Position numbers and translations under genes: made by a program. Positions 5,232-44,891 of a stretch of 64,000 bases of DNA are shown one piece after another; the stretch's first letter is position 1; every line of letters begins with the position of its first letter. The stretch covers positions 2,080,001 to 2,144,000 of the forward strand of contig OZ244207.1 of NCBI GenBank assembly GCA_965216875.1. The letters are read 5' to 3'. Origin of the DNA: Rubripirellula sp. Lineage in GTDB: Bacteria; Planctomycetota; Planctomycetia; Pirellulales; Pirellulaceae. The notes beneath the pieces were generated by a model. That model had not been told where the DNA came from. It saw only the letters and a list, made by a program, of their open reading frames with translations, and did no database searches.

Positions 5232-6458
5232 ATGAACTTGAATTTGACCCACCGCGAACAAACCTTGCAGCGACTAGCACTCGCTCTGCTGTGTGTTGTC
5301 TGTTTCGCGTTCGATGCTCAAGCGCAACAGCCTCAGGCGGTCGATGGTGGTGCTCTGCCAGTGGCAACGAAAGCCGACCCGTGTGGATGCCGGAACACTC
5401 CAGGTGGTTATCCCTGCTTGGGCGGTTGCCAGAACTGCATCATGGGCGTTGATTGCGCCACTTGCGGCGGTGCCGAAGCGCGATGGCAAGACATGCGTCC
5501 GATGCCATTTAGTTCCTACGGTCCCGGTGGATATGCTGGCCCGGCCCGAATGGCTCATCTCAGCGAATACCATCTTCGACCGGGTGACCGCATCGAGATG
5601 TTGTATTTGATCACGCGTCGTCAAAAGGAAGGGCCTTATCGACTCGCGCCTGGTGATGAACTTCTTATCGAATCGGTCGCTGACGCCGACCTGGCACGCG
5701 GGTCGTTGGAAAACGGGCTGGAGATTCAACCCGACGGAACGATCACGTTGCGGCTGCTCGGACAGGTGCACGCCGCCGGCTTGACCGTTGCCCAGCTTCG
5801 TGAGGTCCTCGACAAGCAATACAGCAAGTATTACGAAGAACCTGCCATCGACGTCACGCCCGTTCGTACCAACATCTTGGCAGAAGACATTCGTAGCGCC
5901 GTGGGTGGTCAGAACGGGTTCACTCAGCAGTCGATCGTGGTGACCGTTTTGCCCGACGGAAAGATCCGTCTGCCAAGCATCGGTGAGATTTGCGTTCAGG
6001 GCTTCACGCTCAACCAACTCAAACGAGAAATTAACCTTCGCTACGAAGAGATCGTTGTTGGTTTGGACGTCGAGCCAATCCTCGAGTCGCAGGCCCCCCA
6101 TTTCGTGCATGTGCTTGGTGAGGTGGCGACACCAGAACGCATCGAGCTGCAAGGGCCAACGACAGTGCTTGGTGCGATCGCCGCAGCGGGTGGAGAACTA
6201 CCCGGCGGAAACTTGCGTCAGGTCGTTATCCTGCGTCGCGCCGAAGATTGGCGGTTGATCGCAACCATGCTCGACCTGCAAGGCGCCGTGTTTGGTAAGC
6301 GGCCGACACCAAGCGACGAGATTTGGCTCCGCGACGGTGATGTCGTGATCGTGCCCGCGAAACCGATCCTGCGGTTGAATAACTGGATCCAGCAAATCTT
6401 CACCGACGGCATTTACGGCGTCTATCCTGGCCAGTTCGACTTTACGACCAACAACTAG
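5232..6458 (+). CDS. Polysaccharide export protein (Wza/OPX family, Poly_export + SLBB)
   Basis: YRLAPGDEL, IQPDGTITLRLLGQVHAAGLT, VLPDGKIRLPSIGEI, VHVLGEVATP, LRDGDVVIVP. Alternative start 5172. Confidence 0.85.
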   Translation: MNLNLTHREQTLQRLALALLCVVCFAFDAQAQQPQAVDGGALPVATKADPCGCRNTPGGYPCLGGCQNCIMGVDCATCGGAEARWQDMRPMPFSSYGPGGYAGPARMAHLSEYHLRPGDRIEMLYLITRRQKEGPYRLAPGDELLIESVADADLARGSLENGLEIQPDGTITLRLLGQVHAAGLTVAQLREVLDKQYSKYYEEPAIDVTPVRTNILAEDIRSAVGGQNGFTQQSIVVTVLPDGKIRLPSIGEICVQGFTLNQLKREINLRYEEIVVGLDVEPILESQAPHFVHVLGEVATPERIELQGPTTVLGAIAAAGGELPGGNLRQVVILRRAEDWRLIATMLDLQGAVFGKRPTPSDEIWLRDGDVVIVPAKPILRLNNWIQQIFTDGIYGVYPGQFDFTTNN

Positions 6459-6495
6459 TGCTTGTGGTTGTCGAGACCATCTGTTCTGTCCGTGA

Positions 6496-9400
6496 CTATC
6501 GAGCTTTGATGCGTCCGGAACGTTTGCTCTGTGCAGGCGTTTCACCGGCCGGTCGCAACATTTCGGCGGGCAGGAATGTTAGGCAGAATCCAGATTCAAG
6601 CGAATTGAGCACCTGATCCAATTCGCGTTTGCGAAGGCCTTTTTCGAGATCGATCCGCACCGACGAGGCCGCCATTTCGCGCCCCTTGGTGCTAATCCGC
6701 TGGGCGACGTTGCCGAAGCTCGAATCGTAATCGACGAGCTCTTGCTCTTTGACCAGTTGGCCCCACATCATCGTTGCGCACTGCGCGAAGCTGACGGTGG
6801 TCACGCGTTCGGAGCCCTGGAAGGTGCATTTTTCCATCTCGATGATTTCGGTCATGCAACTCTTCAGCTGGGTGCGTAGCTCTGCCTCATCTGCAGGCCG
6901 ATACAAACGCGTGAGCATCTGTGGTTCGTCGCAGTCGTCATCTAAGTTGAGGAAGTTGTCGCGCAGGGTTTGAACCAGCGAGATGAGTTTGGCGCGCCCG
7001 CCAACTTGGAAAATTGCCTTTGGTCGTCCTTGATGGACTTCGTGACAGGCAACCGCGACAGCTGCCAAATGAGCGGAAAGGAGCTCACGGTCTTTCACGT
7101 CTTCATGATGGCTCTCATCGAGCTGCGATCGCAGCTCGCGAATGCGTTGCCAGAGCTTTGCGCACTCGCTACCAATTTGGTCTTCGATCGGATTGATGTC
7201 GCGCAGTACGGCGTGACGATAGTGTGCTCGAACATCGCCATTGGCTTCATAGGCCCTGAGCCAGTGTTCCGTCAGTGATTCGTAGGGTTCAAGCTTGGGC
7301 AAGAACAGGTGGTCGTGAATCCAACGATCAAAGGAATCGGCGTTGGTCGCTGGTGTCGACCAAATGGCTTCGCTGAAAAGGTCTTCCGTGCTGTAAGATT
7401 GTTCTTGGTGGCACGCAAGTCGATAGCCAGTGAGAACGCGGTCTTTGATGACATCGAACATCGGCTGTGTCCGGGTGTCCTCATCCGAAAACTGGGTGTA
7501 CTCTCGCGCGTCCCAACGCACCAGTTCGCTGCATACACGAGAGGCGATATGGTGGCCAAGGTTTCGGTAGGCAGCCACTTGGTCGTCGGTATAGAACTGG
7601 TTCGTTGTCGGTTCATCGGGGAAGGACGGAAACCGATGGCGGATCTGTTGAATGTCGATCGGATCCGATTGGGTGATCGCCATTTGGCAATAGACCAATA
7701 ATCCCGTCGAACCATCTTCGTAGCGAATCCGCGCGACAATGTAGGGTTGATGGACAACCTTTTCTTCGCTGTTCGACTTGTCAACCGCGAGCCGCCCAAA
7801 GTCGATCGGAGCGTCGTGGTCGAGATCGAGAATCTTGACTCCGTATTGGGATGCGGCGGTGGTGCACATCCGCGCAAGCGGTGCCAGCGGGTTGTTGCCC
7901 AAGTTGGCTCCCGCGTCGCTGACGATGATCAAACGACATTTCCTGCGGAACAATTCGGTGACGCCGAGATAGTCGTAGAAGCCACCATCGGCTACGTGCC
8001 CCATGCTTTCCGTTTGAGCCAGGTTTGCCGCGTAGGCTCGTGGACGCTCGGCTCGTGAGGAGTCGGTGTCGGTGATATCGATTGGCTGAAGGATGGAGCG
8101 CAGGAACTGGCAGATGCCCGACCAATGATTCACGCCAACAAAGTAGGCGACCGCAGTAAGCAGAGCGATCAGGAACAGCGAAAAGGTGATGCCGAACCAA
8201 TACCATCCGAAAAACAGGCTGGCGAACAATCCAGCGCACGCGAACGTTCCAGCGACGGGAGTCGAGCGAATTGCTGCAACGAGGCTGGCTCGCCGTGAGT
8301 CTGCGTCTTTACAGCGAATCAACCATTGCCCAAGTCCGTCCCCAAAGAAACTCAAGATAATCGACAGTGCGCGAGTGTCGGTCATCAGTGGCGTCACGGC
8401 AGCGCCAGAAATCGTCACCGCATCGCTGACCGTCAGTGGTGTTCGGCCGACTCCAGGCAACTGAATCTTGCTGGTCTCGTAAATCGAATCGACATGGTCA
8501 CCGTCGCCGCAGTAAACCGGCGAAAAGACAAACGGACGACTGCGCACATGGTAACTGCCTTGGATCACACAAGGCGTCATTCGCGCCGCAAGATAGAGCG
8601 GATGGGGCAAGCCATCGCGGGTCGGCTCGAACTCGTGAAGCGGCGTCGACCCGTCATACGCCGCAGATCCCGATTGAGTCGAACTCAGGAACAACCGCGC
8701 GATTCGGTCGCGATAGTACGCGTAGATGGTGATCGTTTGATTGCGGACCACACTCAGGCAAACGCCGATGCAAAAGAGGGTCCACCAACCGAGCAACCAA
8801 CGCCAACGCACCGCTTGGTCGTGTGGTGGAACGATCAATGTACTGGCGACGGTGCGATCTTGAATGACGCCTTCAAAATAGGTTTCTAGTTTCGAGCGAC
8901 TCGACTCGGCGATCTTGCGTTTGGCGTCAAAATCGTCGCCGCCAAGGGGCTGACGCAGAATCGGCACCGCCGCAAGATCCGCTTTCGAGCTGTCCTTGGA
9001 TCGATATTGCTCGAGAAAGCCGGGGAAGTCGGGGTGGTGCAGCAGTTCATTGAATGTGTTGAGATAAGCACGATGCAGATTTCGTCTGTGGTGTGCAATC
9101 AAATGGTAGTGGCGAATCGTCTGCGCGTCGTGCTTGTCGACATCTTCAAAATAGTCTTTGGCAACGTCGTCGTCGGGCGTGAATCGTGTTCGAAGGTAGG
9201 CTTCCGAGCATGCCGCCATCCGACGCCAGAAACTCCACGGTTCAACTTGATCTTTGCCTATACGAGCTTGCTCGGCGGCTGAGACTGGCGACGGAGGGTC
9301 CGATTTGGTGTAGGTCGGAACGCCGTCGCGCAGCGGGACCAGCACGTTGACTCGCTGGTGCTGGCTCCAATCATCGCCGTAGTTGATCGGCGCCTTAGCA

Positions 9401-10578
9401 ATGTCGTAATCGACGCTCAGCGTTGGGGCGTCTGGGACACCTGTCGTGTGACTCGCAGCCCAGGCTTCAGGGGCGGCACGATACTGCTCAAATTGGTCCT
9501 CGAGGTGGTAGAGCGTTGGCCAGCTTTGGACGTCACCGACGACAAGGTAGGGGCCGCGTTGATCGGCGTAACCACTGATGTCTTCACGAGCCATCCAATG
9601 CACCATCGCGAAGCACGCAAAGAAGACGACGCCACTGGTCGAAACTTTCTGAAGCGCTTTTTGCCAGTACTGGGACTCGTCCCGCTCAGAGCGAAACAGT
9701 CGGTCACGTCCGACGAAGACGAGCACTTGGATGGTTCCCGCGATAATCGCAAACCACTGCGCGTAGTGGTTTAGTTGGATTTCATCGCCGGTACGTGAGG
9801 TATTGGATTTCCCGTTCCCCAAAAAGACTGCAACCGAAACCAAGAGCGAGACAAGAAAGAGCGTTAGCCCAATGCGGCTGATCGTTAGCTGGCGTGGTGA
9901 TTCGCGGAACCACCCGAAGACGGTTGCCAGCGCCCAGCCAACACCCACAATCAACGGAGGATAGAAAGCGATTGCGAGTTCGCCACCGAAGCGAAAGTCG
10001 AGCACGTTGTGCAGCATGATCCGAAACATCGGATCGTCGAAGGAACGCCAAAAGAGCGCGAGGAGTGTTGCGATGAACCCGGCTAAGCCGATGATCACGA
10101 GCGCACTTAATAATACGGACCACAGAAAGCTGGGAGCAATCGATATTCGGTTTGCCAAGTAGCGTCCGACGCCGTTGAGCCGGCCGCTGTCCACTTTGCC
10201 AGTCTTCGAGCAACGCCCCATCATCCAGCGAGCAAGCGTTCCTTGGCTGGATGTTTCGTCGTCGTGAAAGCCGTCCGACTTGTCACGTGATTCTTGCTTC
10301 GCGCGCGTTGCGAGATGGGCAGCGATGTAGCCGCCGCCGGAAACGCTACAAAGGAAGTCGACGTAGCGAAGCAGCCCCGAGTGAGAAAGGCCCTGCAAAA
10401 ACCCATCATTGAACATGGCGGATCGCAGACCACCGCCAGAAAGCGAGAGTCCCACCAGGTTGTCTGGACGCTGCGTATCGTCCTCGGCCGCTTGCTTTTC
10501 TGGGAACGCGTTTGCTCGGCGTTCGTGGACCCGTTTCCACTCCGCTTCGCGGTATTCGTCGGGCAGAGACTCGGTCAT
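6496..10578 (-). CDS. Large multi-TM patatin/cPLA2-like phospholipase
   Basis: GLSLSGGGLRSA oxyanion loop, SVSGGGY nucleophile motif, ADGGFYDYLG Asp motif, FPDEPTTNQF; several hydrophobic helices. Start may extend to 10632. Confidence 0.75.
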   Translation of the reverse strand: MTESLPDEYREAEWKRVHERRANAFPEKQAAEDDTQRPDNLVGLSLSGGGLRSAMFNDGFLQGLSHSGLLRYVDFLCSVSGGGYIAAHLATRAKQESRDKSDGFHDDETSSQGTLARWMMGRCSKTGKVDSGRLNGVGRYLANRISIAPSFLWSVLLSALVIIGLAGFIATLLALFWRSFDDPMFRIMLHNVLDFRFGGELAIAFYPPLIVGVGWALATVFGWFRESPRQLTISRIGLTLFLVSLLVSVAVFLGNGKSNTSRTGDEIQLNHYAQWFAIIAGTIQVLVFVGRDRLFRSERDESQYWQKALQKVSTSGVVFFACFAMVHWMAREDISGYADQRGPYLVVGDVQSWPTLYHLEDQFEQYRAAPEAWAASHTTGVPDAPTLSVDYDIAKAPINYGDDWSQHQRVNVLVPLRDGVPTYTKSDPPSPVSAAEQARIGKDQVEPWSFWRRMAACSEAYLRTRFTPDDDVAKDYFEDVDKHDAQTIRHYHLIAHHRRNLHRAYLNTFNELLHHPDFPGFLEQYRSKDSSKADLAAVPILRQPLGGDDFDAKRKIAESSRSKLETYFEGVIQDRTVASTLIVPPHDQAVRWRWLLGWWTLFCIGVCLSVVRNQTITIYAYYRDRIARLFLSSTQSGSAAYDGSTPLHEFEPTRDGLPHPLYLAARMTPCVIQGSYHVRSRPFVFSPVYCGDGDHVDSIYETSKIQLPGVGRTPLTVSDAVTISGAAVTPLMTDTRALSIILSFFGDGLGQWLIRCKDADSRRASLVAAIRSTPVAGTFACAGLFASLFFGWYWFGITFSLFLIALLTAVAYFVGVNHWSGICQFLRSILQPIDITDTDSSRAERPRAYAANLAQTESMGHVADGGFYDYLGVTELFRRKCRLIIVSDAGANLGNNPLAPLARMCTTAASQYGVKILDLDHDAPIDFGRLAVDKSNSEEKVVHQPYIVARIRYEDGSTGLLVYCQMAITQSDPIDIQQIRHRFPSFPDEPTTNQFYTDDQVAAYRNLGHHIASRVCSELVRWDAREYTQFSDEDTRTQPMFDVIKDRVLTGYRLACHQEQSYSTEDLFSEAIWSTPATNADSFDRWIHDHLFLPKLEPYESLTEHWLRAYEANGDVRAHYRHAVLRDINPIEDQIGSECAKLWQRIRELRSQLDESHHEDVKDRELLSAHLAAVAVACHEVHQGRPKAIFQVGGRAKLISLVQTLRDNFLNLDDDCDEPQMLTRLYRPADEAELRTQLKSCMTEIIEMEKCTFQGSERVTTVSFAQCATMMWGQLVKEQELVDYDSSFGNVAQRISTKGREMAASSVRIDLEKGLRKRELDQVLNSLESGFCLTFLPAEMLRPAGETPAQSKRSGRIKAR

Positions 10579-10830
10579 GTATTGGCACCCCATCGCGTTG
10601 GTAACGTCGACTACCCCCGATGATAGTGACACGGCGCTGGGGCAACCTAGTGTTCAAACGTATTTGGCGAGATGTGACAATTAGGTGAGCCTTGGCGAAT
10701 AGCGAGTGATGATGCAACCGAAAAGGTTGTGAGCCTCTCGCCGCTGTCGTTTGTAACTCCGGGCATCAGCTGGAATCTTTGCGCAAGCCGCGCAAAGGCT
10801 GGGTGACGATCGGCAAGCACCGAACGCCAC

Positions 10831-11571
10831 TCACCATTCGCCCGTTTGGCCAAACTTCTTATGCGTCGCATCGGAGAACGCCTTTGCGGCCGCATTGAGT
10901 TTGGCGACGGCCTCGGGCGTCGGAAGCCCCGCGCAGCTGCGGGCTGCGGCGATCACGGTGTTGCATTCGTTCTCGTCCATGAACAACGACGCTTCCAGCA
11001 AACGGGCCTCGTCCTCTTCGGGCACAGCGAGGAATCCGTGTTTGTCGGCATGAATCAACTGTCCTGGTTTGATCGTGCGTCCGAAGACTTCGACTTCACA
11101 ATCCCATCGCACTGGAACAACGTGCGCATGGCCAACCGACAAGCGTTGTGCGAGTGCCTTGAATCCGGCATTGGTCATCTCGTCCACATCGCGAATCGAG
11201 CCGTCCGTGATGGTGCCAACACAACCAAGCGCGCGGTGCAAGTTGCTGTTCACTTCACCCCAAAAGGATCCGAGCACTTTGGGTTTGTCCAAATCCTGCA
11301 CAACGACAATCTTGGGGCCAGGGGCGTTTGCGACGTATTCGCGGTAGGCTGCTCCCGGCTTCTTTTCTTTGTGTGCCGCATTGGACGGTTCGATCACGAC
11401 GGTCACGGCATAACCGACCATGGGCCCCATCTGAGGCATGAAATCGTTCGTCTCTTCGAGGTTGAATCCGTCGTGGGCGATGTCGCTTGAAGTGATCTGC
11501 TCCCAACCGTTGTAGATCGTGGGAGTGTTCCAGCGTTTGAGTTTCAAGAGGTCAGAGTGGGACAGTGGCAT
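10831..11571 (-). CDS. RraA family / HMG-CHA aldolase-like protein
   Basis: MVGYAVT, FWGEVN, GTITDGSIRD, PGQLIHADKHG motifs. Confidence 0.85.
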   Translation of the reverse strand: MPLSHSDLLKLKRWNTPTIYNGWEQITSSDIAHDGFNLEETNDFMPQMGPMVGYAVTVVIEPSNAAHKEKKPGAAYREYVANAPGPKIVVVQDLDKPKVLGSFWGEVNSNLHRALGCVGTITDGSIRDVDEMTNAGFKALAQRLSVGHAHVVPVRWDCEVEVFGRTIKPGQLIHADKHGFLAVPEEDEARLLEASLFMDENECNTVIAAARSCAGLPTPEAVAKLNAAAKAFSDATHKKFGQTGEW

Positions 11572-11580
11572 CGGAGAGAC

Positions 11581-12867
11581 TTAGGCGGGTGGGGAAAGGA
11601 GTGATTTGTCGGCGTATGCATCTCGCAGAATCTGCATCGTGTGACGAACGCCAATGGATTGGTTCGAATCGGAGTTGAGATGGTTGCCAATTTGGGTCAA
11701 ACAACCGATGTTTCCGGTCGCAACGAGATCGGCGCTGGTCGCGCGAATGCACTCCGCTTTTTGCTGACCAAGTGAGGCTGCGACTTCGGGTTGGTCGATG
11801 TTGTAAGTGCCAGCGGAGCCACAACAGAGATGCCCCTGGGCGATCTCGACAACCTCTGCGCCAGGAATCGAAGCGAGCAACCCGCGTGGTTCGCTGCGAA
11901 CACCTTGCGCATTGGCCAAGTGGCACGCATCGTGATAGGCAATCCGAACAGCTTGGGACTGGGGCGGGATTTCAACGAGCTCACCCAAACGCGCAAGTAG
12001 TTGCGAAACGTCGCAGACAAGACTTGCGAACTTCGCCGCTTTTGCTTCGTCCGCTGTTCCCTTCAAAACCAAGCCGTATTCATGCATTCCAGACCCGCAA
12101 CCCGCAGCGTTGGTGACGATCGCATCGACGTCGAGTGGAAAGGCTTCCAAGTTCTGTCTTGCGAAGGCCTGCGCCTGCTTGAGGTTACCGACGTGCCAAG
12201 AAAGCGCGCCGCAACAGCCTTGGGTTCTCGGCACGATCACTTCGACACCATTGCGTGTTAGCACGTCGATCGTTGCCGTGTTGATGTCGGGATCGAGCAC
12301 ACTTTGCGCACAACCGGTCAATAGGGCGACTCTAGCGCGACGTTCGCCCTGCGGTGAATAGGTTTCGTTCCAACTTTGCTTGGCAGGAATGGATTCGGGA
12401 AGCAGCGAAAGCATCACTCGCAGTTGCTTGGGCAGCAAACCTGCAAACGGCTTTGCGAGTCTTCCTGACAACGCTGCCATTCGAAAACGGCTTGGGTAGG
12501 GCAGGGTGCTTTGGGCGAGGAACCGAACGACTCTTTGGATCAGTGGGCGACGGCGCTGAGGTTCCTGCAAAGCCCGGAAAGGACTGATTAGATCGCGATA
12601 CGGCACGCCTGAGGGGCAAGCGGGTTCGCACGCCAAGCAGCCGAGGCAGGTGTCGAGGTGGTCCGTCGCTGCGTCGAGCGGCATCGTGCCTTCAAGCACC
12701 TCTTTCATCAAGACGATGCGGCCGCGTGGAGTGTCGGTCTCCTGCCCAAGTTCTTGGTAGGTAGGGCAAGCAGCCAGGCAGAACCCGCAGTGCACACAGG
12801 TGCTGACTGCGGCGGCCATGTCTTCGCCGAGAGGTCCATGATGTTGCGGATCAATGTCGTGTTGCAT
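11581..12867 (-). CDS. glcF: Glycolate dehydrogenase iron-sulfur subunit
   Basis: CVHCGFCLAACP and CLGCLACEPACP 4Fe-4S motifs, two CCG domains, YHDACHL. Confidence 0.92.
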   Translation of the reverse strand: MQHDIDPQHHGPLGEDMAAAVSTCVHCGFCLAACPTYQELGQETDTPRGRIVLMKEVLEGTMPLDAATDHLDTCLGCLACEPACPSGVPYRDLISPFRALQEPQRRRPLIQRVVRFLAQSTLPYPSRFRMAALSGRLAKPFAGLLPKQLRVMLSLLPESIPAKQSWNETYSPQGERRARVALLTGCAQSVLDPDINTATIDVLTRNGVEVIVPRTQGCCGALSWHVGNLKQAQAFARQNLEAFPLDVDAIVTNAAGCGSGMHEYGLVLKGTADEAKAAKFASLVCDVSQLLARLGELVEIPPQSQAVRIAYHDACHLANAQGVRSEPRGLLASIPGAEVVEIAQGHLCCGSAGTYNIDQPEVAASLGQQKAECIRATSADLVATGNIGCLTQIGNHLNSDSNQSIGVRHTMQILRDAYADKSLLSPPA

Positions 12868-12884
12868 CGTATTTTGAATGCTGC

Positions 12885-13973
12885 CTAAATCGGCAAGAAC
12901 TTTGCTTGAGGATCGATCGCGTTCTTAATGCCCTTTGCGATCACGCTCTCATTCCGTTTCCCGAGCCAATGAACGTGAGTGTCGCCACGTACAACCAATC
13001 CTTGAAGGCCTTCGGCGGCAAGCAATGGATCAAGGTCTTGCAGAGCAGATTCCGTTGAAGTCGCCGCCCAAACCACTGCCCCGCCAACACTCACATGCGT
13101 TTGCACGTCACCAAGCGACTCAAGTTTGTCGACAAGCTGCGGAAAACTGGCTGGACTTGACGGAATCTTGACGACGAATGGATCTGCAGCGGCAAAGGAG
13201 AGTTCAATGACTTCGTTCCAATAGGCAGCGGCTTCATCGTCAGCAACGGGCGACAAGGTCAACCCGATCTGTTGCTCGACGTCCGCGGCGATCGGCGCGA
13301 TCGATTCGTGCGGGCCACTGAAGCGCACCATGACCTCTTCGTTGCGGAAGTCGACGGCATCAGGTTCCCAACGGCCGCGTCCGATTTGCTGCATCATGCT
13401 CGCGGCAGTTTTTGCGCTGTCGCACCGAATCTTGAAGCTTCGAGAGGCGGGAGCAACGGGGAAAACTTTGAAGGTCAGATCCACGATCAAACCGTAGCGG
13501 CCAATCGATCCGACGAGCAGTTTGGGAATATCAAAGCCGGCCGCGTTCTTGACGACTTTACCGCCGACACGCACGAGATGGCCATCGCTGGTAAGCAAGT
13601 GTGCACCGAGCAAAAAGTCTCGCAACCCTCCGTATCGAAAGCGACCTGGGCCAGACAATCCAGCGCAAACGGTGCCGGCGAGTGTTGCGCCACCGTCAAC
13701 CAGCATCGGGTCAAAGGGAAGGTATTGTCCTTTGTCCCGAAGTACGTCGATGACTTCACGAAGCGTCGTACCAGCTTTTGCGGTGAAAGTGAACTCGGAG
13801 GGTTCGTATTCGACGATACCTCGGTAGTTACTCGTCGAAACGTAGATCGCGTTGGAATCGCCCGCGTGGCTGAGCGCCGGTTTGGTCCGGTTGCCAACAG
13901 GCACGACGACAGTTGATTCAGCGACGATCGACGTGATCGCATCGAGTGAATCGGGTTCCTGCATTTCACTCAC
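12885..13973 (-). CDS. glcE: Glycolate dehydrogenase FAD-binding subunit
   Basis: [38 protein letters not shown]; lies between glcD and glcF. Confidence 0.9.
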
Positions 13974-15405
13974 GCGAGATCACTCCCGCCTCTTCCAGAG
14001 GATGCAATCCCGTCATCGAAAGTGACGGCGCCTCTTTTCCAGGGAACATTTTGCCCGGATTGCCGATTCGCTTGGGGTCGAATGCCAGACGAAGCCGATC
14101 CATCAGCGCAATCGTCGGCTCATCAAACATCTCTGGCAAATAGTCGCGTTTTTCCATTCCAACGCCATGTTCGCCTGTGATGGAGCCGCCCATTTCGACG
14201 CACATCTTCAGCAACTTGCCAGCGAGCGCTTCGGCGCGATGGAGTGCGCCAGGAATCGTGCCGTCGAACATGATTAACGGGTGCAGGTTTCCATCGCCGG
14301 CATGAAACACGTTCGCTACTCGGATGTCGGCTTCACGAGACATCTGTTCGATTCGCTCGAGCGCTTCACCGAGTCGCTTTCGTGGAACGACACCATCTTG
14401 AACCAGGAAGTCGGGACTCAGTCTGCCGACTGCTGAAAAGGCCGACTTGCGTCCGCGCCAAATCGAAAGGCGATCTTCGGCGTCGACCGCGACACGCTGG
14501 GCAAAGTGGTCGGTTGTGGCAAGGATTTTGGCGAGCTGCTCTTTCTCGTGTTCAATCTTTTCACGTGGACCCTCCAGTTCAACGATCAAGACCGCCGCGG
14601 CGCCGGGCGGGTATCCACACGCAACAGCAGCCTCGGCCGCTTCAATCGCGAGCGCGTCCATGATCTCGAGTGCACCCGGCAGCAGACCAGCGTCGATCAC
14701 TGCCGAGACCGCGTCACCAGCGGCTCGCAAACTCTTATAGCCAACGAGCACCGTGTGGAACATCTCGGGCTTGGGAAGTAGCCGTAGCGTGACTTCGAGG
14801 GCGATCCCGAAAAGACCTTCGCTGCCACAAAACAAGCCGGTGTAGTCGGGACCGATCGATTCGACCGAGTCGCCTCCGAAGTTGACCACTTCGCCACTGG
14901 CGAGAACAGCTTTGATGCCCAAGACATGGTTCGCGGTCATACCGTACTTCAAGCAGTGTGCGCCGCCGGAGTTGAAGGCGACGTTTCCACCAATAGTGCA
15001 GATCGTTTGGCTTGAAGGGTCGGGGGCATAGTACAAACCATGGGGTGACGCCGCATCAGTAACGTGGTTGTTGATCACGCCCGGTTGAACCACGGCGACG
15101 CGATCATCAGGATCGACCCGAAGGATCTTGTTCAGTCGGTTGAGTGCGATGACGATGCCACCAGCGACAGGCAAGGAACCTCCCGAGAGACTCGTTCCGC
15201 TGCCGCGCGCGACAAAGGGGACTGCGTGATCGTGGCACCAACGTACGGCGGCAACGGTTTCGTCAGCGGTTTCGGGGATCACCACGGCAAGTGGCTTTTC
15301 GCGGAACGCCGTTAAACCGTCCGACTCAAATGCAGCACGAAACGCATCGTCTTTGACGAAGCGTTTTGCTGGAAATATCTCGGCCAGACCGCTTAGATCA
15401 GTCAC
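13966..15405 (-). CDS. glcD: Glycolate dehydrogenase FAD-linked subunit
   Basis: [49 protein letters not shown]. Confidence 0.93.
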
Positions 15406-15415
15406 TCGTTTCGCT

Positions 15416-16528
15416 TCAGCTCAAACAATCTTTCAGGGCAGCAAGCAAAGTCGTCACGTTGCGTTTGGTCGCTGAATCGCCCATCAAACCAATCCGCCAT
15501 GCTTTACCAGCGAAGACGCCCAGTCCGCCACCGATTTCAATGTCGTACTCTTCGAGCAATCGACGTCGCACCGCGGCTTCGTCGATTCCTTCAGGAACGG
15601 AGACGCAGTTGAGTGTGCAAAGCGAATTCTTGGGAATGTACTTTAGTCCCAGTTCTTCCAAGCCGGCTCGCAGTAGCTTGTGCATCTCTTCGTGGCGACG
15701 CACACGGTTTTCGATGCCCTCTTCGACAATGATCGAAAGCGCCTCGCGGAGTGCATAAACCATGTTGATCGGCGCGGTGTGGTGGTAAGCCCGTCCACCA
15801 CCGCCGGTGTAATAGTTCTTGAGCATCGAGACGTCCAAGTACCAGCTTTGCACCTTAGTCGTGCGTGCGTCCATCTTTTCGATTGCACGAGGTGAAAAGG
15901 AAACGGGGGATAGACCGGGAGGACATGAGAGGCATTTCTGTGTGCCGGAGTAAACGGCGTCGATGCCCCAATCGTCAACTTTGACTTCGTGACCGCCAAG
16001 CGAAGTGACCGTATCGACCGCAAGCAACATCCCGGCGTCGTGGACAATCTTTCCAACGTTGGTCAGGTCTTGATGTGCCCCGGTTGAGGTTTCAGCGTGA
16101 ACGACCCCCAGCACCTTCGCGTTGGGGTGCTTGCCAACTGCGTCGGCGATCATTTCATCGGTAAAGGTTTCGCCCCAAGGGACTTCGACAACGTGCACGG
16201 TCGCACCGGCTCGCTCCATGTTGTCTTTCATGCGTCCGCCGAAAACGCCGTTGATGCAGACGATGACTTCATCGCCAGGTTCAACGAGGTTCACGACGAT
16301 CGTTTCCATGCCCGCCATGCCGGTGCCCGAGACCGGAAAGGTCAATGCGTTCTCCGTCCCGTAAACCTGCCGCATCAATTGGCAAGCTTCGTCCATGTAT
16401 TCGATGTACTGTGGATCCAGATGTCCCAGTGTTGGCGCGCCGATGGCCCGCAGGATGCGTGCGGGAACGGTACTTGGGCCAGGCCCCATCAAGATGCGCT
16501 GGCGTGGATTGAGCGGAGAAACGGTCAT
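15416..16528 (-). CDS. Alanine/serine-glyoxylate aminotransferase (class V PLP)
   Basis: [36 protein letters not shown] (PLP Lys), YHHTAP, WRIGLMG. Start set at MTVSP to avoid overlap with the permease. Confidence 0.9.
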
Positions 16529-16568
16529 AGCGTCTTCGGGTCGTAAGATAAATGGTTCGCGTGGGCTG

Positions 16569-18251
16569 CTATGCGAGGCAAATCCCCAACAAGCCAGCCA
16601 CAAGAATGTAATACAGAAAGACAAAAAATGTGATCCGTATCACGTCGCCCTCGCGGCCGATCAGCCCGACGACCGCACAGGCGGCAACAACGTTGTGGAC
16701 ACAAATCACGTTTCCAGCGGCACCGCCCACTGCCTGCAGCGCCACGACCCAGCGAGGGTCGGCACCGATATTCTGGGCAACGCCAAACTGAAAACTGCTG
16801 AACAGCATGTTCGAAATCGTGTTGCTGCCTGCGACAAACGCGCCCACACCGCCGATTGCGGGCGACACAGCGGGCCAAGCCTTTCCGACGATTGAGGAGA
16901 CTCCACTGGCCAATTCTTCGGGCATCGAGGCGAGTCCGGCTGCCCCGTCGCCCGAATTCAGGAAGACCTGCACCATCGGGACGGCAAAGATCAGTGCGAC
17001 CGACGCCGAAAGGATCATTCGCCAAGATTTGGTGACCGCTCGGCCAACCGAGGGAGCATCCATTCGATGAAGAAGAACGGTCAGAATACAAACGACGATG
17101 AAGATGGTGCCGGGGAGGAATAGGATCGATACCGGTTTGATTTCGACCGTCGAACCGAACACCGCAACCGTGGTTTGCGGATCGGTCGGCAAGGCAAAAC
17201 TTTTTAGCCAATTGCCAATCTCGAGCTGTGGCAGTCGCGTTAGCACCAACAGGGCGGCAATCAAAACGTAGGGCAGCCAGGCTTGCCAAAGCCGCAGGCT
17301 ACGTTTGGGGGCTTCAAACTTGATCTCGGTTGTACCGCTCCACGAAGCATCCCACTGCGCGGGCTCCGGAAAATCCCAGTGATCATTCTTGGGAAGCAAG
17401 AAGCGATTTTGCGCGGCCGGAATGACGATGGCGAGGCCAACAAGTGAGCCGAGCAGTGAAGGAAATTCAGGGCCAAGAGTGTTTGCGATGATCGCGTAGG
17501 GGATCGTCATGCAGAGCGAAGCAAACAACGCAAACTTCCAGATCGCAAGTCCATCACGAAAACTCCGATTGGCTCCGAAAAAGCGAGTCATCACGCAGAC
17601 AACCAACAGCGGAATGAGCGTTCCGCAGGTCGCATGAAGGATCGCGACTTTTCCTCCGATGATCGGTAGTAGTTCGGTCCAGGAGGCCATCCCCAGTCCC
17701 TCGGCATAGGCCTCGACCGCAGCGCTATCCTCAAGTCCGCCTTTGACTCCAACAAGGATCGGAGTTCCGACGGCGCCAAACGAAACGGGAGTGCATTGGA
17801 TGAGCATTCCAGACACAACAGCCGACTTGGCCGGAAATCCGAGGCCGACGAGAAGAGGCACGCAAACAGCAGCGGGAGTGCCGAAGCCTGCGGACCCTTC
17901 GATGAAAGAACCAAAAAGCCAAGCGATGATGATCACCTGAACCCGCCGGTCGTCACTGATGTTGGTGAAACCCTGACGTATGACCGAGAGCCCGCCACTC
18001 TCGCTGAGCGTGTTCAGCAAAAGGATCGCGCCAAAGATGATGTACAACAGCGTGAAGGTAATGACCAAGCCCTTGACCGAAGCGGCGGCGATTTGGGCAT
18101 AGCTCAATCTCCAATAAAAAAGCCCAACCAGCAGCGCCGTGACGTACGACAGAGGCATCGCCTTGGAGGCTGGAAAACGAAGGATCACCAGAAAGATCGC
18201 AACGACGACGATCGGCGAAAGAGCGACCAATGGAGCGAGCGTTTCGAACAT
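16569..18251 (-). CDS. L-lactate/glycolate permease (LctP family)
   Basis: [40 protein letters not shown]; highly hydrophobic. Confidence 0.92.
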
Positions 18252-18299
18252 AGTGACCCAATTCTTGAAAAGCGGCTTGCCCGATTCAGGCGGCGTTTT

Positions 18300-19280
18300 C
18301 TAGCGATCAAACTCGGGGTTAACGAGGTTGGGTGGGCGTTCACCTCGACAAGCCGCGAGACAATTCGCAACAGCCATGTTGCCCATCTTGGTGCGTGTCC
18401 CGATCGTTGCGCTGCCAAGGTGAGGTGCAACAACCGCGTTTTCTAGCGAATCGAGTTCAGGCTCTAATTGCGGCTCGCGTTCGTACACGTCAAGTCCCGC
18501 GCCTCCGTGTGGGTTGGCCTTGAGCCAATCGACGAGTGCTTTTTCATCGATCACCGGGCCGCGAGCCGTGTTGATGATTCGTGCAGTGGGTTTGAGTCGA
18601 GCCAGTTCCTCGCGTCCAATCAAATGCGTTGTTTCGTTGGTCAGTGCAACGTGGAGCGAAAGGAAGTCGCTCTCGGCAAGCACGTCGTCGAGCGAAGCGT
18701 ACGTTGCGTTGCACTCTTGTTCGACAGCTGCGTCAAGCTTGGATCGGCTCCAGTAAATCACGCGCATGTCAAAACCTGCGGCTCGTCGCGCAACCGCTTG
18801 TCCGATCCGCCCCATGCCGACGATTCCCAGTGTCGCGCCGCTGATATCAAGACCTAGCAATTGAAGCGGCCCCCATCCTTTCCAACTCTGCGACCTCACC
18901 ATCCGGTCGCCTTCGACGACGCGGCGTCCAGAGGCGAGCATCAACGCCAAAGCCATGTCTGCCGTTGAATCCGTCAAGACGCCGGGCGTGTTGGTCACGG
19001 GAATGGAACGCTGGGTGGCAGCGTCGACGTCGATGTTGTTAAAGCCGACAGCGAAATTCGCGATCACCTTGAGCTGAGGAAGTGCGTCCATCACCTCAGC
19101 GTCGATCGTGTCAGTCAATAGGCAAAGCAAGCCATCGGCGTCGCGTGCGCCGTCGATAATCTCTTGCTTTTCAAGGACACGGTCCTCAGCGTTGAATTGC
19201 AGGTCACTCGCCTGCTGCAAGCGTTTCATTGACTCGGGAGGGAGTTCACGAGTCAGAAAGATTCGAGGTCTGTCGGACAT
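18300..19280 (-). CDS. D-2-hydroxyacid dehydrogenase (glyoxylate/hydroxypyruvate reductase type)
   Basis: AVGFNNID, TNTPGVLT, GMGRIG, INTARG, DVYEREP, PHLGSAT. Confidence 0.9.
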   Translation of the reverse strand: MSDRPRIFLTRELPPESMKRLQQASDLQFNAEDRVLEKQEIIDGARDADGLLCLLTDTIDAEVMDALPQLKVIANFAVGFNNIDVDAATQRSIPVTNTPGVLTDSTADMALALMLASGRRVVEGDRMVRSQSWKGWGPLQLLGLDISGATLGIVGMGRIGQAVARRAAGFDMRVIYWSRSKLDAAVEQECNATYASLDDVLAESDFLSLHVALTNETTHLIGREELARLKPTARIINTARGPVIDEKALVDWLKANPHGGAGLDVYEREPQLEPELDSLENAVVAPHLGSATIGTRTKMGNMAVANCLAACRGERPPNLVNPEFDR

Positions 19281-19456
19281 AAAGTGAGACGAATCAGGCC
19301 AGGTGCGGGTCAAACGGACAACATTGTAAGGCTGATCTGGCCGACAATGTTCGGCTGAGCCCGTTTCGAAAGAATCTTCGGCTTCCAGCGCAAGCGGCGC
19401 GCTCCTTCACCTCGATTGAATCAAACCCAAGCGACCCGAGAACACAAGACACATTG

Positions 19457-19849
19457 ATGAGCAACGACCCCGCGAATCCATACGCAGCGCCAACGGCTGC
19501 AATGGCACCGACCGATATCAGCTCACTCGATCCAGTTGCCCGGGCCAAAGCCGAGGCGATCATCAAGGATGCGAGTCAGTTTTGGCTCGCCATCCTCGTG
19601 ACACTCTTGTGCAGCTCGCTCGGTGGCCTGATCATCGGTCCCTGGTACTTGGTCCGACTTCTTCAATGGAACTCATTGAAGAAGAGTGAAGCGGAGCTTG
19701 CCCAAATCAATCCTCCGCCCGGATCGCTCGCGGCCCAGTTTCAGTCTGCCAAGGTGAAGCTGATCGTCGGGCTTTGCTTCGGAGCGATGATGTTGCTGCT
19801 GGGCATCATGGTCTTTTTGCTGATGTTTGTGGGTGCCGTCGTCGCATAA
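19457..19849 (+). CDS. Small membrane protein
   Basis: N-terminal NPYAAP; two hydrophobic segments; divergent from the glc operon. Confidence 0.7.
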   Translation: MSNDPANPYAAPTAAMAPTDISSLDPVARAKAEAIIKDASQFWLAILVTLLCSSLGGLIIGPWYLVRLLQWNSLKKSEAELAQINPPPGSLAAQFQSAKVKLIVGLCFGAMMLLLGIMVFLLMFVGAVVA

Positions 19850-20018: not shown

Positions 20019-22019
20019 CTAGTTGCCTGGGAATCCACCGGGTGCACCGGGAACTTGGAAGTTTGGCAACGTTGGGCCGCCAGCACCGGGCACAGGGCCG
20101 GTTGCACCGGGCTTAGCGAACAGTTCTTCGCGGTCGATGCGGAGCTTCGAATAGGTCTCTTCCGAGATGACGTAGTACCAGTCTGCGAAACGTGCATTCA
20201 GCTCGGCGACACGACGACGGGCATCCGCCAGTTGATCGTTGCGCTCGTCGATCTTGCGTTGGTTCTCCTTCAAGATCTTCTCACGCTCGGCCTCAAGCAA
20301 CTCTTGCTTCTCTTCATCCGACATGCTCGCAAAGTCATTCTCTTCGGATGCTTCCTGGCCAGCCTCGTCAGCTTTCACGACTACCTCGGATTCCGGAGCG
20401 GGGGCTTCGTCGGTGGTTTCAGGCTCAGCCGATGTTTCGGTTTCATCTTCACCAGCGCCTTCGGCCTCTTTTTCTGTATCGTCGGCTGCGTCCTCAGCGG
20501 ACTCGTCTTGGCCACCGCCCGAACCTTCGGCTTCGCCGCTTCCGTCGGATTCAGACTCGCCAGAGGCTTCTTCCGATTCGGTTGTTTCTTGAGCTGGTTC
20601 ACCGCCATCCGCGTCGCCGGCTTCGTCAGTGCTCGCGTCGGTGTTCGCTTCTGCTTCTTCAGTCGTCTCTTCGGATGCTTCCCCCTGACTTTCCTTGGCA
20701 TCGTTAGGTGCTGGATCATCGGAGGTTGCCGCAGCTTCGGTATCCGATGTGGCCGATACTTCGCCGTTAACCTCGGGCTGTGGAGCCATCATTTTTTCGA
20801 GGTCTTCGATCGTCTCTGGTGGCACTTCCAGGGCGGGTGCGGGGAATTTCGATTCGTCAACTTGCGTCATCACCAACAGGTAGCGATTGACGCCGCCTTC
20901 GCTTTCTTCGGCGGATTCGGAGTCTGCTCCGTCCGAGACGCCGGCGATGTTGCCAAACCGAAGGACGTACTGAACGCCGTCCTTCAAGCCAACAGTCAAT
21001 TCACCATTCGCAGACAGTAGTTGGTATTCGGTTCCACGTTGGATGGGATAGAACCCGCGACGGCCAAGTGAACTGATCGCATCTTTGTCAGTCAATAAGT
21101 CTTTGTTGGCGCGAAGCGTCGCACTCATACCGTCGGGTTTGCGGTGCACGTCGGCGATTTTGAGATCGTCGAGCGCATTCTTGATTTCGTTAAGCTTGGT
21201 GGCGTCGAGCTTTTCGCTTGGAAGTGGATCGACTGGAATGGGCGTCAACGGATCGTTGGCCGCATATTCGGCAAGCGACTCGAGGCTCCATTCCGTACCA
21301 TCAAGTTTGACCTTCGCATCGTAGTTGCTGGTCAGACTGAATTGTCCGGTAGCCAGCGAAGCGTTGTGGTCGCGAATCTCCATATCCTCGATATCGATGC
21401 TGCTCAGTTTCAGCAGGTCATCTTCGATCCACTTGGTGAAGCTGGTCGTCAGGGGGGCGTCGTCAAAGTCAACGACGTAAACGAGGTCCTGGCCAGGCAC
21501 GCGAACGAAACGCTTGGCTGCATCGTCGCTTGGGCTGCTGCCGATGATCAGCGACGCGAGCGTCTTTTGTGAGTCGTCTTTGAAGGTGACCATTCGTCCG
21601 ACACCCTCGTCACCGATCTCGAGATCTTCGAGTTTCGGCTCGATCACGCCAAAACCTTCGTGGTCTTCGGCGTTGTCGGATCGAACATCAAGGATCTTCA
21701 AGCCAACAAACGCGTTGGCGGCTTCCTTCATCTGTTCAACGGCGTCAGCTGGATAGCTGGCGCGCGATGGAATCGTCCACAAGCCCGATTCACGGTCTTT
21801 GCGGACTTCAAACGTTTCCAACTCGCCACGTTCGTCATCAAACGTGACGATCTTCAAGCTTGCAGCGGCAAGTGGATCCGAAAAGGTCTCGAAGAGATCA
21901 CGGTTGATCAGCGTATCGTTGCTTTGCTCGGACGTTGACGGCCAAGCGACAAAGGCGGCAATGGCAAGCATCACGACAGCGACGCACCAGAAGACGCCTG
22001 TTTTGGTACCTTCGTTCAT
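20019..22019 (-). CDS. DUF4340 domain protein with long acidic linker
   Basis: N-terminal TM; SYPAD, LIIGS..RFVR; usual position after a GldG-like gene. Confidence 0.8.
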   Translation of the reverse strand: MNEGTKTGVFWCVAVVMLAIAAFVAWPSTSEQSNDTLINRDLFETFSDPLAAASLKIVTFDDERGELETFEVRKDRESGLWTIPSRASYPADAVEQMKEAANAFVGLKILDVRSDNAEDHEGFGVIEPKLEDLEIGDEGVGRMVTFKDDSQKTLASLIIGSSPSDDAAKRFVRVPGQDLVYVVDFDDAPLTTSFTKWIEDDLLKLSSIDIEDMEIRDHNASLATGQFSLTSNYDAKVKLDGTEWSLESLAEYAANDPLTPIPVDPLPSEKLDATKLNEIKNALDDLKIADVHRKPDGMSATLRANKDLLTDKDAISSLGRRGFYPIQRGTEYQLLSANGELTVGLKDGVQYVLRFGNIAGVSDGADSESAEESEGGVNRYLLVMTQVDESKFPAPALEVPPETIEDLEKMMAPQPEVNGEVSATSDTEAAATSDDPAPNDAKESQGEASEETTEEAEANTDASTDEAGDADGGEPAQETTESEEASGESESDGSGEAEGSGGGQDESAEDAADDTEKEAEGAGEDETETSAEPETTDEAPAPESEVVVKADEAGQEASEENDFASMSDEEKQELLEAEREKILKENQRKIDERNDQLADARRRVAELNARFADWYYVISEETYSKLRIDREELFAKPGATGPVPGAGGPTLPNFQVPGAPGGFPGN

Positions 22020-22034
22020 TGGTATGTCCTTTCG

Positions 22035-24926: not shown

Positions 24927-25004
24927 GGTGGATTGAACGCTTTCGAATAGTCAGATGTCGGACAACAACCGAATGGAATCAACAGAGTTGAAGGTGCGAA
25001 GAAA

Positions 25005-44692: not shown

Positions 44693-44891
44693 CTCATTTG
44701 CCCCGAGCTTTTCCAGCTCGGATCCCATCGAATCAAACCCAATGTTGCATCTGGCAATCCCAGCGGCGCCAATTCCTTGCCCCTCACGCTAAGGGCAAGC
44801 GGCGCGATTCAAAAGGGGGCGCTGGGATTTTGCGATTCGATTTGGATCGATAATCCTCGGACGTGGCGACGAGATCGCCAGCGGGAGCCAC

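What the first reader, a model, noticed from the sequence alone, without database searches (positions are those of the whole stretch)
10831..19280. Seven-gene glycolate/2-hydroxyacid operon with a non-canonical route for glyoxylate
Seen: seven co-oriented genes (dehydrogenase, permease, aminotransferase, glcD, glcE, glcF, RraA-like) with gaps of 48, 40, 10, -8, 17 and 9 nt. Known: glcDEF usually feeds malate synthase (glcB), glyoxylate carboligase/tartronate semialdehyde reductase, or the beta-hydroxyaspartate cycle; none of these, nor glcC/glcG, is in the window. Inference: aminotransferase + hydroxypyruvate reductase + GlcDEF + permease looks like a self-contained photorespiration-like C2 route in a heterotroph, with an added aldolase-fold enzyme that belongs to none of the routes I know. 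It may be an undescribed assimilation pathway for glycolate or lactate, from algal exudate or deoxy-sugar/pentose breakdown.
Basis: partly seen in the sequence, partly recalled or inferred. Interest (0 to 1): 0.85.

Follow-up and report, generated by a model that had tools for sequence, protein, structure and literature searches.

The report
Plant-style glycolate route in planctomycetes
Seven adjacent genes in a planctomycete bacterium likely take up glycolate and convert it through glycine to glycerate, as plant photorespiration does; the core gene set was already noted in related bacteria, and the extra aldolase-like gene is likely a passenger from acid-sugar breakdown.

Summary
The seven genes and their gaps are real. 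All seven recur in order in six other Pirellulaceae-type genomes. The genome lacks malate synthase, carboligase, isocitrate lyase and a bhc cluster, but holds glycine cleavage, SHMT and class II glycerate kinase elsewhere. A C2-type route is therefore genetically complete but not self-contained. One relative puts the same GlcDEF clade beside malate synthase G instead of the aminotransferase, which points to glyoxylate as product. The aminotransferase-glcDEF-permease core without glcB was described in 2017 in Verrucomicrobia (PMC5615132). New here: the added hydroxypyruvate reductase, and family-wide reach (75 of 121 genomes carry GlcD and the aminotransferase; 5 carry malate synthase). The RraA-fold protein keeps the aldolase Arg-Asp pair, but follows glcF in only 7 of its 80 best loci. 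Elsewhere it sits with sialidase-like genes or a different dehydrogenase, and occurs in genomes without GlcD or the aminotransferase, so it is probably not a glyoxylate-route enzyme. The scan had noted RraA relatives in acid-sugar operons on other DNA, not this operon. Nothing is tested biochemically. New variant of a known kind.

The parts
18300..19280 (-). Glyoxylate/hydroxypyruvate reductase-like D-2-hydroxyacid dehydrogenase (HPR), 326 aa
   Evidence: PF00389/PF02826; best NCBIfam PRK13243 glyoxylate reductase 381.7 bits, cut-off 455 (6); best PDB hits are glyoxylate reductases 2dbq, 5aov, 6bii, E 1e-92 to 1e-95 (65); Rossmann and R/E/H motifs present
16569..18251 (-). LctP-family lactate/glycolate permease, 560 aa
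   Evidence: TIGR00795 347.3 bits, over cut-off 341.15; only 25-30% identical to E. coli GlcA/LldP and 24-27% to the permeases of two related operons
15416..16528 (-). Alanine/serine:glyoxylate aminotransferase-like class V PLP enzyme (AGT), 370 aa
   Evidence: PF00266; best PDB hit 1vjo alanine-glyoxylate aminotransferase, E 1.7e-109, then other AGT/serine-pyruvate aminotransferases; BhcA model 216.5 bits against cut-off 650 (6); the only copy in the genome
13966..15405 (-). GlcD, FAD subunit of glycolate dehydrogenase, 479 aa
   Evidence: 46% identical to E. coli GlcD; TIGR00387 467 bits, under cut-off 567.9 (6); HxGDGNxH and GEHGxG motifs kept
12885..13973 (-). GlcE subunit, 362 aa (GTG start overlapping glcD by 8 nt; alternative ATG at 13964)
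   Evidence: PRK11282 194 bits, under cut-off 284; 29% to E. coli GlcE; starts
11581..12867 (-). GlcF iron-sulfur subunit, 428 aa
   Evidence: PRK11274 345.7 bits, over cut-off 333; two 4Fe-4S motifs and two CCG motifs
10831..11571 (-). RraA/HMG-aldolase-fold protein of an uncharacterised subfamily, 246 aa; likely an accessory addition
   Evidence: PF03737; model pLDDT 95.5 (100); Z 20.1, rmsd 2.7, 199 aligned to HMG/CHA aldolase 3noj; R127/D128 align with R123/D124 (7) and are invariant in 97 of 97 close rows; only RraA-like gene found in the genome

Best explanation
The first six genes likely import glycolate, oxidise it to glyoxylate with GlcDEF and transaminate it to glycine, and the unlinked glycine cleavage system, SHMT and class II glycerate kinase would then carry it through serine, hydroxypyruvate and glycerate to 2-phosphoglycerate, while the RraA-fold gene is likely a later, non-essential addition. 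This is the chemistry of the plant C2 route, used for glycolate from outside or from sugar breakdown rather than from Rubisco. The same aminotransferase would couple serine to hydroxypyruvate with glyoxylate to glycine, and the operon's reductase would make glycerate. Shown: gene content, order, family, conservation, absence of rival sinks. Inferred: every substrate and flux. My odds: glycolate to glycine about 0.8; onward flux to glycerate about 0.55-0.6; RraA dispensable about 0.75.
For: No malate synthase, carboligase, isocitrate lyase, formyl-CoA transferase or BhcC over cut-off (112.8 bits against 690, no bhc neighbours). gcvT/H/P, SHMT and class II glycerate kinase present. Natural swap: in L152 a GlcD of the same clade (74%, tree) lies behind malate synthase G, tartronate semialdehyde reductase and hydroxypyruvate isomerase, all over NCBIfam cut-offs. 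Among 121 family genomes GlcD (40% or more) and AGT co-occur in 75, GlcD alone 7, AGT alone 9, neither 30; malate synthase in 5. AGT lies directly upstream in 18 of 24 distinct loci with GlcD of 70% or more, with 2 more cut by contig ends. Two distinct LctP subclades were recruited to such operons. The five Verrucomicrobia tested have the AGT-glcDEF operon and gcvP but no HPR in the locus and no class II glycerate kinase; one of them, Chthoniobacter flavus, is reported not to grow on glycolate alone. Separate L-lactate dehydrogenases exist in this genome. RraA follows glcF in 7 of 80 loci and occurs in 15 of 50 genomes with neither GlcD nor AGT.
Against: No enzyme assay, growth or expression data. 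GlcD, GlcE and HPR score below their curated cut-offs. gcvP (121 of 121) and glycerate kinase (114 of 121) are near-universal in the family, so their presence says little. HPR is in the operon in only 8 of 24 clade loci, and its close orthologues also occur in 4 genomes lacking close GlcD and AGT matches (G025, G053, G057, G059). An SdaA-like serine deaminase could bypass HPR. HPR-type enzymes also reduce glyoxylate back to glycolate (PMC11032457). In Cupriavidus necator the C2 route did not support glycolate salvage although its genes are present (PMC7486775). RraA stays directly behind glcF in 9 other genomes with 33-398 nt spacers, which may reflect selection. Kin are not independent, so the co-occurrence counts overstate.
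Confidence: 0.55

Rival explanations
1. The operon only turns glycolate into glycine (amino-acid and one-carbon supply, glyoxylate removal); the reductase mops up glyoxylate or hydroxypyruvate, and glycolate alone does not support growth.
For: This is the reading in PMC5615132 Text S1, with C. flavus unable to grow on glycolate alone. HPR is absent from most clade loci. The C2 route did not work in C. necator. No regulator gene lies beside the operon.
Against: Unlike the five Verrucomicrobia tested, this lineage has class II glycerate kinase and co-locates HPR and a permease with AGT-glcDEF in at least 8 genomes including this one (108). An AGT next to an HPR-like gene also appears in G060 (read from coordinates).
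Confidence: 0.25
2. It is mainly a D-lactate (or mixed lactate/glycolate) utilisation operon, for example for products of deoxy-sugar or methylglyoxal metabolism; the aminotransferase then turns pyruvate into alanine.
For: LctP-family permease. GlcDEF-type enzymes also oxidising D-lactate is recalled, not from a call. The genome has a fucose/rhamnose-type microcompartment locus and no LutC/LUD lactate dehydrogenase.
Against: The swap to malate synthase G in L152 (131) and family-wide coupling to a glyoxylate aminotransferase make sense only for a glyoxylate product. An LldD-like enzyme (38%), an NAD-dependent LDH/MDH and a fused 993-aa FAD/Fe-S dehydrogenase are encoded elsewhere.
Confidence: 0.1
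3. The RraA-fold protein is a working member: a metal-dependent aldolase that joins or splits pyruvate and glyoxylate (4-hydroxy-2-oxoglutarate), either as a new glyoxylate sink, as repair of spontaneous aldol adducts, or feeding C2/C3 fragments of acid sugars into the operon.
For: Fold and catalytic Arg-Asp pair of HMG/CHA aldolase are kept. It stays behind glcF in 9 other genomes. All 9 in-operon copies fall in one 19-row group (SH-aLRT 92) that also holds copies outside the operon. RraA folds can act on 2-keto-3-deoxy-aldarates (FlDet, PMC8563752).
Against: 6 of 6 Bacteroidota with the orthologue lack GlcD and AGT matches. 67 of 82 GlcD-bearing family genomes lack it. Its steadier partner is another dehydrogenase: adjacent in 9 distinct loci, and all 11 family genomes with that gene at 66% or more carry the RraA orthologue. 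In G169 it lies 13.3 kb past glcF with 3' neighbours shared with L045, which suggests capture by deletion. An Eda-like KHG/KDPG aldolase already exists.
Confidence: 0.1

Closest known systems
AGXT-glcDEF(-permease) operon of Verrucomicrobia TE4605 and Chthoniobacter flavus (He et al. 2017, PMC5615132, Text S1 and Fig. S5; in silico)
   Same: Same order AGT-glcD-glcE-glcF, no glcB, LctP-family permease; GlcD 71-74% identical and sister clade in the tree
   Different: Here the permease is of another subclade and lies upstream; HPR and an RraA-fold gene are added; class II glycerate kinase is present but not found in 5 of 5 Verrucomicrobia tested
Photorespiratory C2 pathway of plants and cyanobacteria (enzyme list from PMC11032457 and PMC7486775, passages)
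   Same: Homologues for each step from glycolate to phosphoglycerate are in the genome; the aminotransferase's best solved relative is an alanine-glyoxylate aminotransferase
   Different: Heterotroph with an importer; class II kinase predicted to give 2-phosphoglycerate; partly operon-encoded. Rubisco was not searched for
E. coli glc operon (glcC, glcDEFGB, glcA)
   Same: GlcD 46%, GlcE 29%, GlcF 38%; LctP-family permease
   Different: No glcB, glcC or linked glcG; the sink is an aminotransferase
Beta-hydroxyaspartate cycle (BhcABCD)
   Same: Class V glyoxylate aminotransferase as first step
   Different: BhcA and BhcC models far below cut-off; no bhc cluster (6, 86, 88)
HMG/CHA aldolase (P. 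putida, 3noj), yeast YER010c, and FlDet KDGR dehydratase/decarboxylase
   Same: RraA fold, Z 20-21; Arg-Asp pair (7, 107)
   Different: 18-24% identity; Glu in place of Asp102; a separate tight subfamily with acid-sugar neighbours; substrate untested. The FlDet sequence could not be fetched, so that relation is untested

Membership tests
GlcDEF glycolate dehydrogenase | Three adjacent subunits D, E, F with FAD-oxidase and 4Fe-4S/CCG motifs | tested here: met
GlcDEF glycolate dehydrogenase | Each subunit over its curated NCBIfam cut-off | tested here: not met
   GlcF over; GlcD 467 against 567.9 and GlcE 194 against 284. The GlcD beside malate synthase G in L152 scores the same (469.7), so the cut-off is narrower than the function
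GlcDEF glycolate dehydrogenase | Oxidises glycolate to glyoxylate | not testable with these tools
   inferred from context
E. coli-type glc operon | Malate synthase G and GlcC regulator | tested here: not met
Glycerate (carboligase) pathway | Glyoxylate carboligase | tested here: not met
   best 316.8 bits against cut-off 711.2; 33% to E. coli Gcl
Beta-hydroxyaspartate cycle | BhcA and BhcC over cut-off, clustered with BhcB/D | tested here: not met
   216.5 against 650; 112.8 against 690; neighbours unrelated. BhcB and BhcD were not searched on their own
AGXT-glcDEF operon (He et al. 2017) | AGT directly upstream of glcDEF, no malate synthase in the genome | tested here: met
C2 (photorespiratory-type) pathway | Genes for glycolate oxidation, glyoxylate transamination, GCS, SHMT, HPR and glycerate kinase | tested here: met
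C2 (photorespiratory-type) pathway | Flux from glycolate through glycine and serine to glycerate | not testable with these tools
   needs 13C tracing
C2 (photorespiratory-type) pathway | Rubisco-derived 2-phosphoglycolate as source | not tested
   Rubisco not searched; only weak gph-like matches of 28-29%
HMG/CHA aldolase (LigK/GalC) | RraA fold with catalytic Arg and metal-binding Asp | tested here: met
HMG/CHA aldolase (LigK/GalC) | Score over equivalog cut-off | tested here: not met
   TIGR02798 32 bits against 304.5; PRK09262 35.1 against 179
HMG/CHA aldolase (LigK/GalC) | Second metal ligand (Glu199 equivalent) in place | tested here: inconclusive
   conserved E202 lies one position off in the profile alignment; not checked in 3D

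The most novel reading that the evidence does not exclude
Pirellulaceae grow on, or co-assimilate, algal glycolate through a complete plant-type C2 route to glycerate, and the lineage with this operon has completed the Verrucomicrobial AGT-glcDEF module by adding a hydroxypyruvate reductase and an RraA-fold aldolase that feeds or repairs the glyoxylate pool. This would be a further natural route for glycolate assimilation in heterotrophs, beside the glycerate pathway, malate synthase and the beta-hydroxyaspartate cycle.
Probability: 0.3. Interest if true: 0.68.

Novelty: new variant of a known kind. Interest (0 to 1): 0.45.

Why it matters
Glycolate is a major algal exudate, and surveys score its users by glcB and the bhc genes (for example 10.1101/2025.09.29.679071, passages). 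Those markers would miss Pirellulaceae: 75 of 121 sampled genomes carry GlcD plus the aminotransferase and only 5 carry malate synthase. If the route carries flux, a common bacterial family recycles glycolate with loss of one CO2 and one ammonia per two molecules, which changes carbon-fate estimates. The contrast with Verrucomicrobia (no HPR, no class II kinase, one strain reported not to grow on glycolate) gives a direct test. Separately, the RraA subfamily is a widespread, highly conserved, uncharacterised enzyme of acid-sugar clusters.

Tried and rejected
First fold from 24 close sequences failed (pLDDT 47.9) and was replaced by a 146-row alignment. Promoter scan: 0 sites against 3.3 in shuffles; terminator-like sites 15 against 11.1, uninformative. 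No shared upstream motif seen by eye in 8 upstream regions. Idea that a UxaA/GarD-like dehydratase partners RraA: no match in any RraA locus and the gene is in 96 of 121 genomes; rejected. gcvP and glycerate kinase as co-occurrence markers: near-universal. Whether glcF and RraA adjoin in G067: contigs end, no overlap, undecided. The careful GlcD tree did not finish; the quick tree is used, and the E. coli row sits on a long branch. Monophyly of in-operon RraA copies is unresolved (60 rows, a chosen subset of loci; no clade test run). GC content gives no sign of recent transfer: 57% operon, 56% genome. No complex prediction was sent, as no open binding claim is made. Papers PMC2978589 and PMC3993161 were not held; FlDet supplements were not seen. 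Literature searches found no paper on this seven-gene operon, on planctomycete glycolate assimilation, or on this RraA subfamily; the library lacks most subscription journals.
Full report
Observation. The window is G000:C1:2080001-2144000 of an 8.26 Mb single-contig genome, 99% complete. Its only complete genus-mate in the sample, G014, is the same stretch as locus L005, titled Rubripirellula sp., so this is a Pirellulaceae planctomycete. Seven minus-strand ORFs lie at the stated place with gaps 48, 40, 10, -8, 17 and 9 nt. They are a glyoxylate/hydroxypyruvate reductase-like dehydrogenase (HPR), an LctP permease, a class V aminotransferase (AGT), GlcD, GlcE, GlcF and an RraA-like protein. GlcF and the permease pass their NCBIfam cut-offs; GlcD, GlcE and HPR do not. 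GlcD, E and F are 46, 29 and 38% identical to the E. coli proteins. The best solved relatives are glyoxylate reductases for HPR and alanine-glyoxylate aminotransferases for AGT. Such tight runs are rare in this genome: 13 of 3795 runs by a crude count.

What the genome lacks and holds. No malate synthase, isocitrate lyase, carboligase over cut-off, class I glycerate kinase, formyl-CoA transferase or bhc cluster (6, 82, 86, 88) was found. Present elsewhere are gcvT/H/P, SHMT and a class II glycerate kinase. By the enzyme list of the C2 pathway (PMC11032457, passages) every step from glycolate to phosphoglycerate has a candidate, but three steps are unlinked, so the operon is not self-contained. 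An SdaA-like deaminase (35% over 189 aa), an Eda-like aldolase (38%) and an LldD-like lactate dehydrogenase (38%) are also present.

Conservation. All seven genes recur in order in L003, L005 (= L085, G014), L017, L045, L087 and L167; L004, L006 and L007 match as far as their contigs reach. In L167 glcD, glcE and glcF match in several frames, either assembly errors or broken genes. Among 24 distinct loci with GlcD of 70% or more, AGT lies directly upstream in 18, is cut off in 2 and is absent in 4; HPR is in 8; RraA follows glcF in 9, and 2 end too early to tell. Seven of those loci were fetched with RraA as query, so the 9 is inflated. In 121 family genomes GlcD matched in 87; I dropped 5 whose best hit was under 40%, leaving 82. 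AGT matched in 84: both 75, GlcD only 7, AGT only 9, neither 30. Malate synthase matched in 5, and in none of 5 further genomes checked. The two genes are adjacent in 13 genomes that I picked out by eye and checked. Kinship inflates these counts.

Which substrate. L152 holds a GlcD of the same clade (74%) behind malate synthase G, tartronate semialdehyde reductase and hydroxypyruvate isomerase, each over cut-off. A swap of AGT for malate synthase is what one expects if GlcDEF makes glyoxylate. Permeases of two LctP subclades, only about 25% alike, have joined these operons, which suggests that an external 2-hydroxy acid is imported. Both points are inference; no assay exists.

Prior description. 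He et al. 2017 (PMC5615132; main-text passages, Text S1 part 1 of 2, and the text of Fig. S5; one picture-only supplement unread) describe AGXT-glcDEF with an LctP permease and no glcB in Verrucomicrobia TE4605 and Chthoniobacter flavus. They propose glycolate to glyoxylate to glycine and note that C. flavus does not grow on glycolate alone. I recovered that operon in six Verrucomicrobia at 71-72% GlcD identity, sister to the clade of this window. Five of them were tested: all have gcvP, none has a class II glycerate kinase (classes I and III untested), and none has HPR in the locus. The Pirellulaceae version is therefore the same module with the missing C3 steps available. Against over-reading this: gcvP is in 121 and the kinase in 114 of 121 family genomes; close HPR orthologues are in only 11 of 121, four of them in genomes lacking close GlcD and AGT matches; and in C. 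necator the C2 route did not operate (PMC7486775, passages).

The RraA-fold gene. A model from 146 sequences (pLDDT 95.5) matches the RraA/HMG-aldolase fold, with Z 20.1 to HMG/CHA aldolase 3noj at 18% identity and Z 21-22 to three other members. R127 and D128 align with R123 and D124 (7), which PMC5065237 (passages) names as catalytic and metal-binding; both are invariant in 97 of 97 close rows. It is therefore likely an enzyme. It belongs to a tight subfamily, 67-83% identical across many phyla. Of its 80 best loci only 7 carry glcDEF; 29 carry BNR sialidase-like genes, 9 NanM-like, 8 DHDPS/NanA-like and 6 HpcH-like genes. Of 50 such genomes (50 of 72 candidates, MAGs of unstated completeness) 15 have neither GlcD nor AGT, including 6 of 6 Bacteroidota. 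In the family, 17 of 121 genomes carry it, 3 of them in the operon, while 67 of 82 GlcD genomes lack it. Its steadier partner is a second 2-hydroxyacid dehydrogenase: adjacent in 9 distinct loci, in 12 of 17 RraA genomes against 21 of 104 others, and all 11 genomes with that gene at 66% or more carry RraA. In G000, G014 and G068 RraA ends the glc operon while that partner sits behind a UxaA/GarD-like gene. In G169 RraA lies 13.3 kb past glcF with downstream neighbours shared with L045, where it adjoins glcF. This fits capture by rearrangement. Its retention behind glcF in 9 other genomes leaves an auxiliary role open, such as splitting pyruvate-glyoxylate adducts or feeding C2/C3 fragments from acid sugars. 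FlDet shows that the fold can act on a 2-keto-3-deoxy-aldarate (PMC8563752, passages and section 7); its sequence was not seen, and the supplements may bear on the comparison.

Mechanism. Shown: genes, families, order, conservation, absence of rival sinks. Inferred: the permease imports glycolate; GlcDEF passes electrons to the respiratory chain and makes glyoxylate; AGT makes glycine; glycine cleavage and SHMT turn two glycines into serine, CO2 and ammonia; AGT turns serine into hydroxypyruvate; HPR and the class II kinase give 2-phosphoglycerate. I put this at 0.55, glycine supply only at 0.25, lactate use at 0.10 and an integral RraA step at 0.10.

Novelty. Nine literature searches found the core in one paper and nothing on the seven-gene form or on planctomycete glycolate assimilation. 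Other papers seen as passages: 10.1101/2025.09.29.679071 (47) and PMC11323563. The scan's notes held two findings with RraA relatives in acid-sugar loci and none on this operon.

Noticed in passing
L152 (G167:C185), 6200-19700: Same-clade glcDEF flanked by glcG, malate synthase G, tartronate semialdehyde reductase, hydroxypyruvate isomerase, a citrate:cation symporter-family gene and a regulator-like ORF, with no carboligase in the stretch; the genome also has a second AGT-glcDEF operon (L151).
   Followed up: partly
G000:C1:2410696-2413277 (L164): UxaA/GarD-like dehydratase followed by the PGDH-like dehydrogenase that in 9 other loci adjoins the RraA gene; substrate of the RraA plus dehydrogenase pair unknown.
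   Followed up: partly
L029, L030, L047, L054, L060, L063, L077: Clusters of RraA with BNR sialidase-like, NanM-like, DHDPS/NanA-like, HpcH-like and MFS genes across phyla; likely an undescribed acid-sugar pathway.
   Followed up: partly
G000:C1:5939192-5944044: nan-like cluster (DHDPS-type lyase, 867-aa NanM-like kelch protein, further ORF) without an RraA neighbour in this genome.
   Followed up: no
G000:C1:7708170-7716659: Microcompartment locus with shell genes, aldehyde dehydrogenase, class II aldolase and LDH/MDH, resembling the planctomycete fucose/rhamnose type; a possible internal source of lactate or glycolaldehyde.
   Followed up: partly
G000:C1:2815226-2818204: Fused 993-aa FAD/Fe-S dehydrogenase, under the YdiJ cut-off; a candidate second 2-hydroxyacid dehydrogenase.
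   Followed up: partly
window 6496-10632 (-): 1378-aa membrane protein with a weak patatin-like match, 198 nt downstream of the RraA gene on the same strand; not seen as a conserved neighbour.
   Followed up: no
window 38150-44728 (-): 2192-aa UvrA with doubled domains.
   Followed up: no
window 20019-25754 (-): ABC transporter trio: ATPase, fused permease/auxiliary protein and a 666-aa protein with a long acidic low-complexity stretch.
   Followed up: no
G009, G013, G017, G067, G068, G109 and others: Pirellulaceae carry either a split two-gene GcvP (as in G000) or a single chain of about 1000 aa; both types occur among operon-bearing relatives.
   Followed up: no
L153 (G169) 8306-9415 and L167 (G171) 8970-12842: Apparent frameshifts in AGT and in glcD/E/F; may be assembly errors.
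   Followed up: no
L182 (G061:C446) 5778-11853: A distant RraA paralogue (29%) lies 1.4 kb past glcF of a distant glcDEF clade on the opposite strand; a single case, possibly chance.
   Followed up: partly
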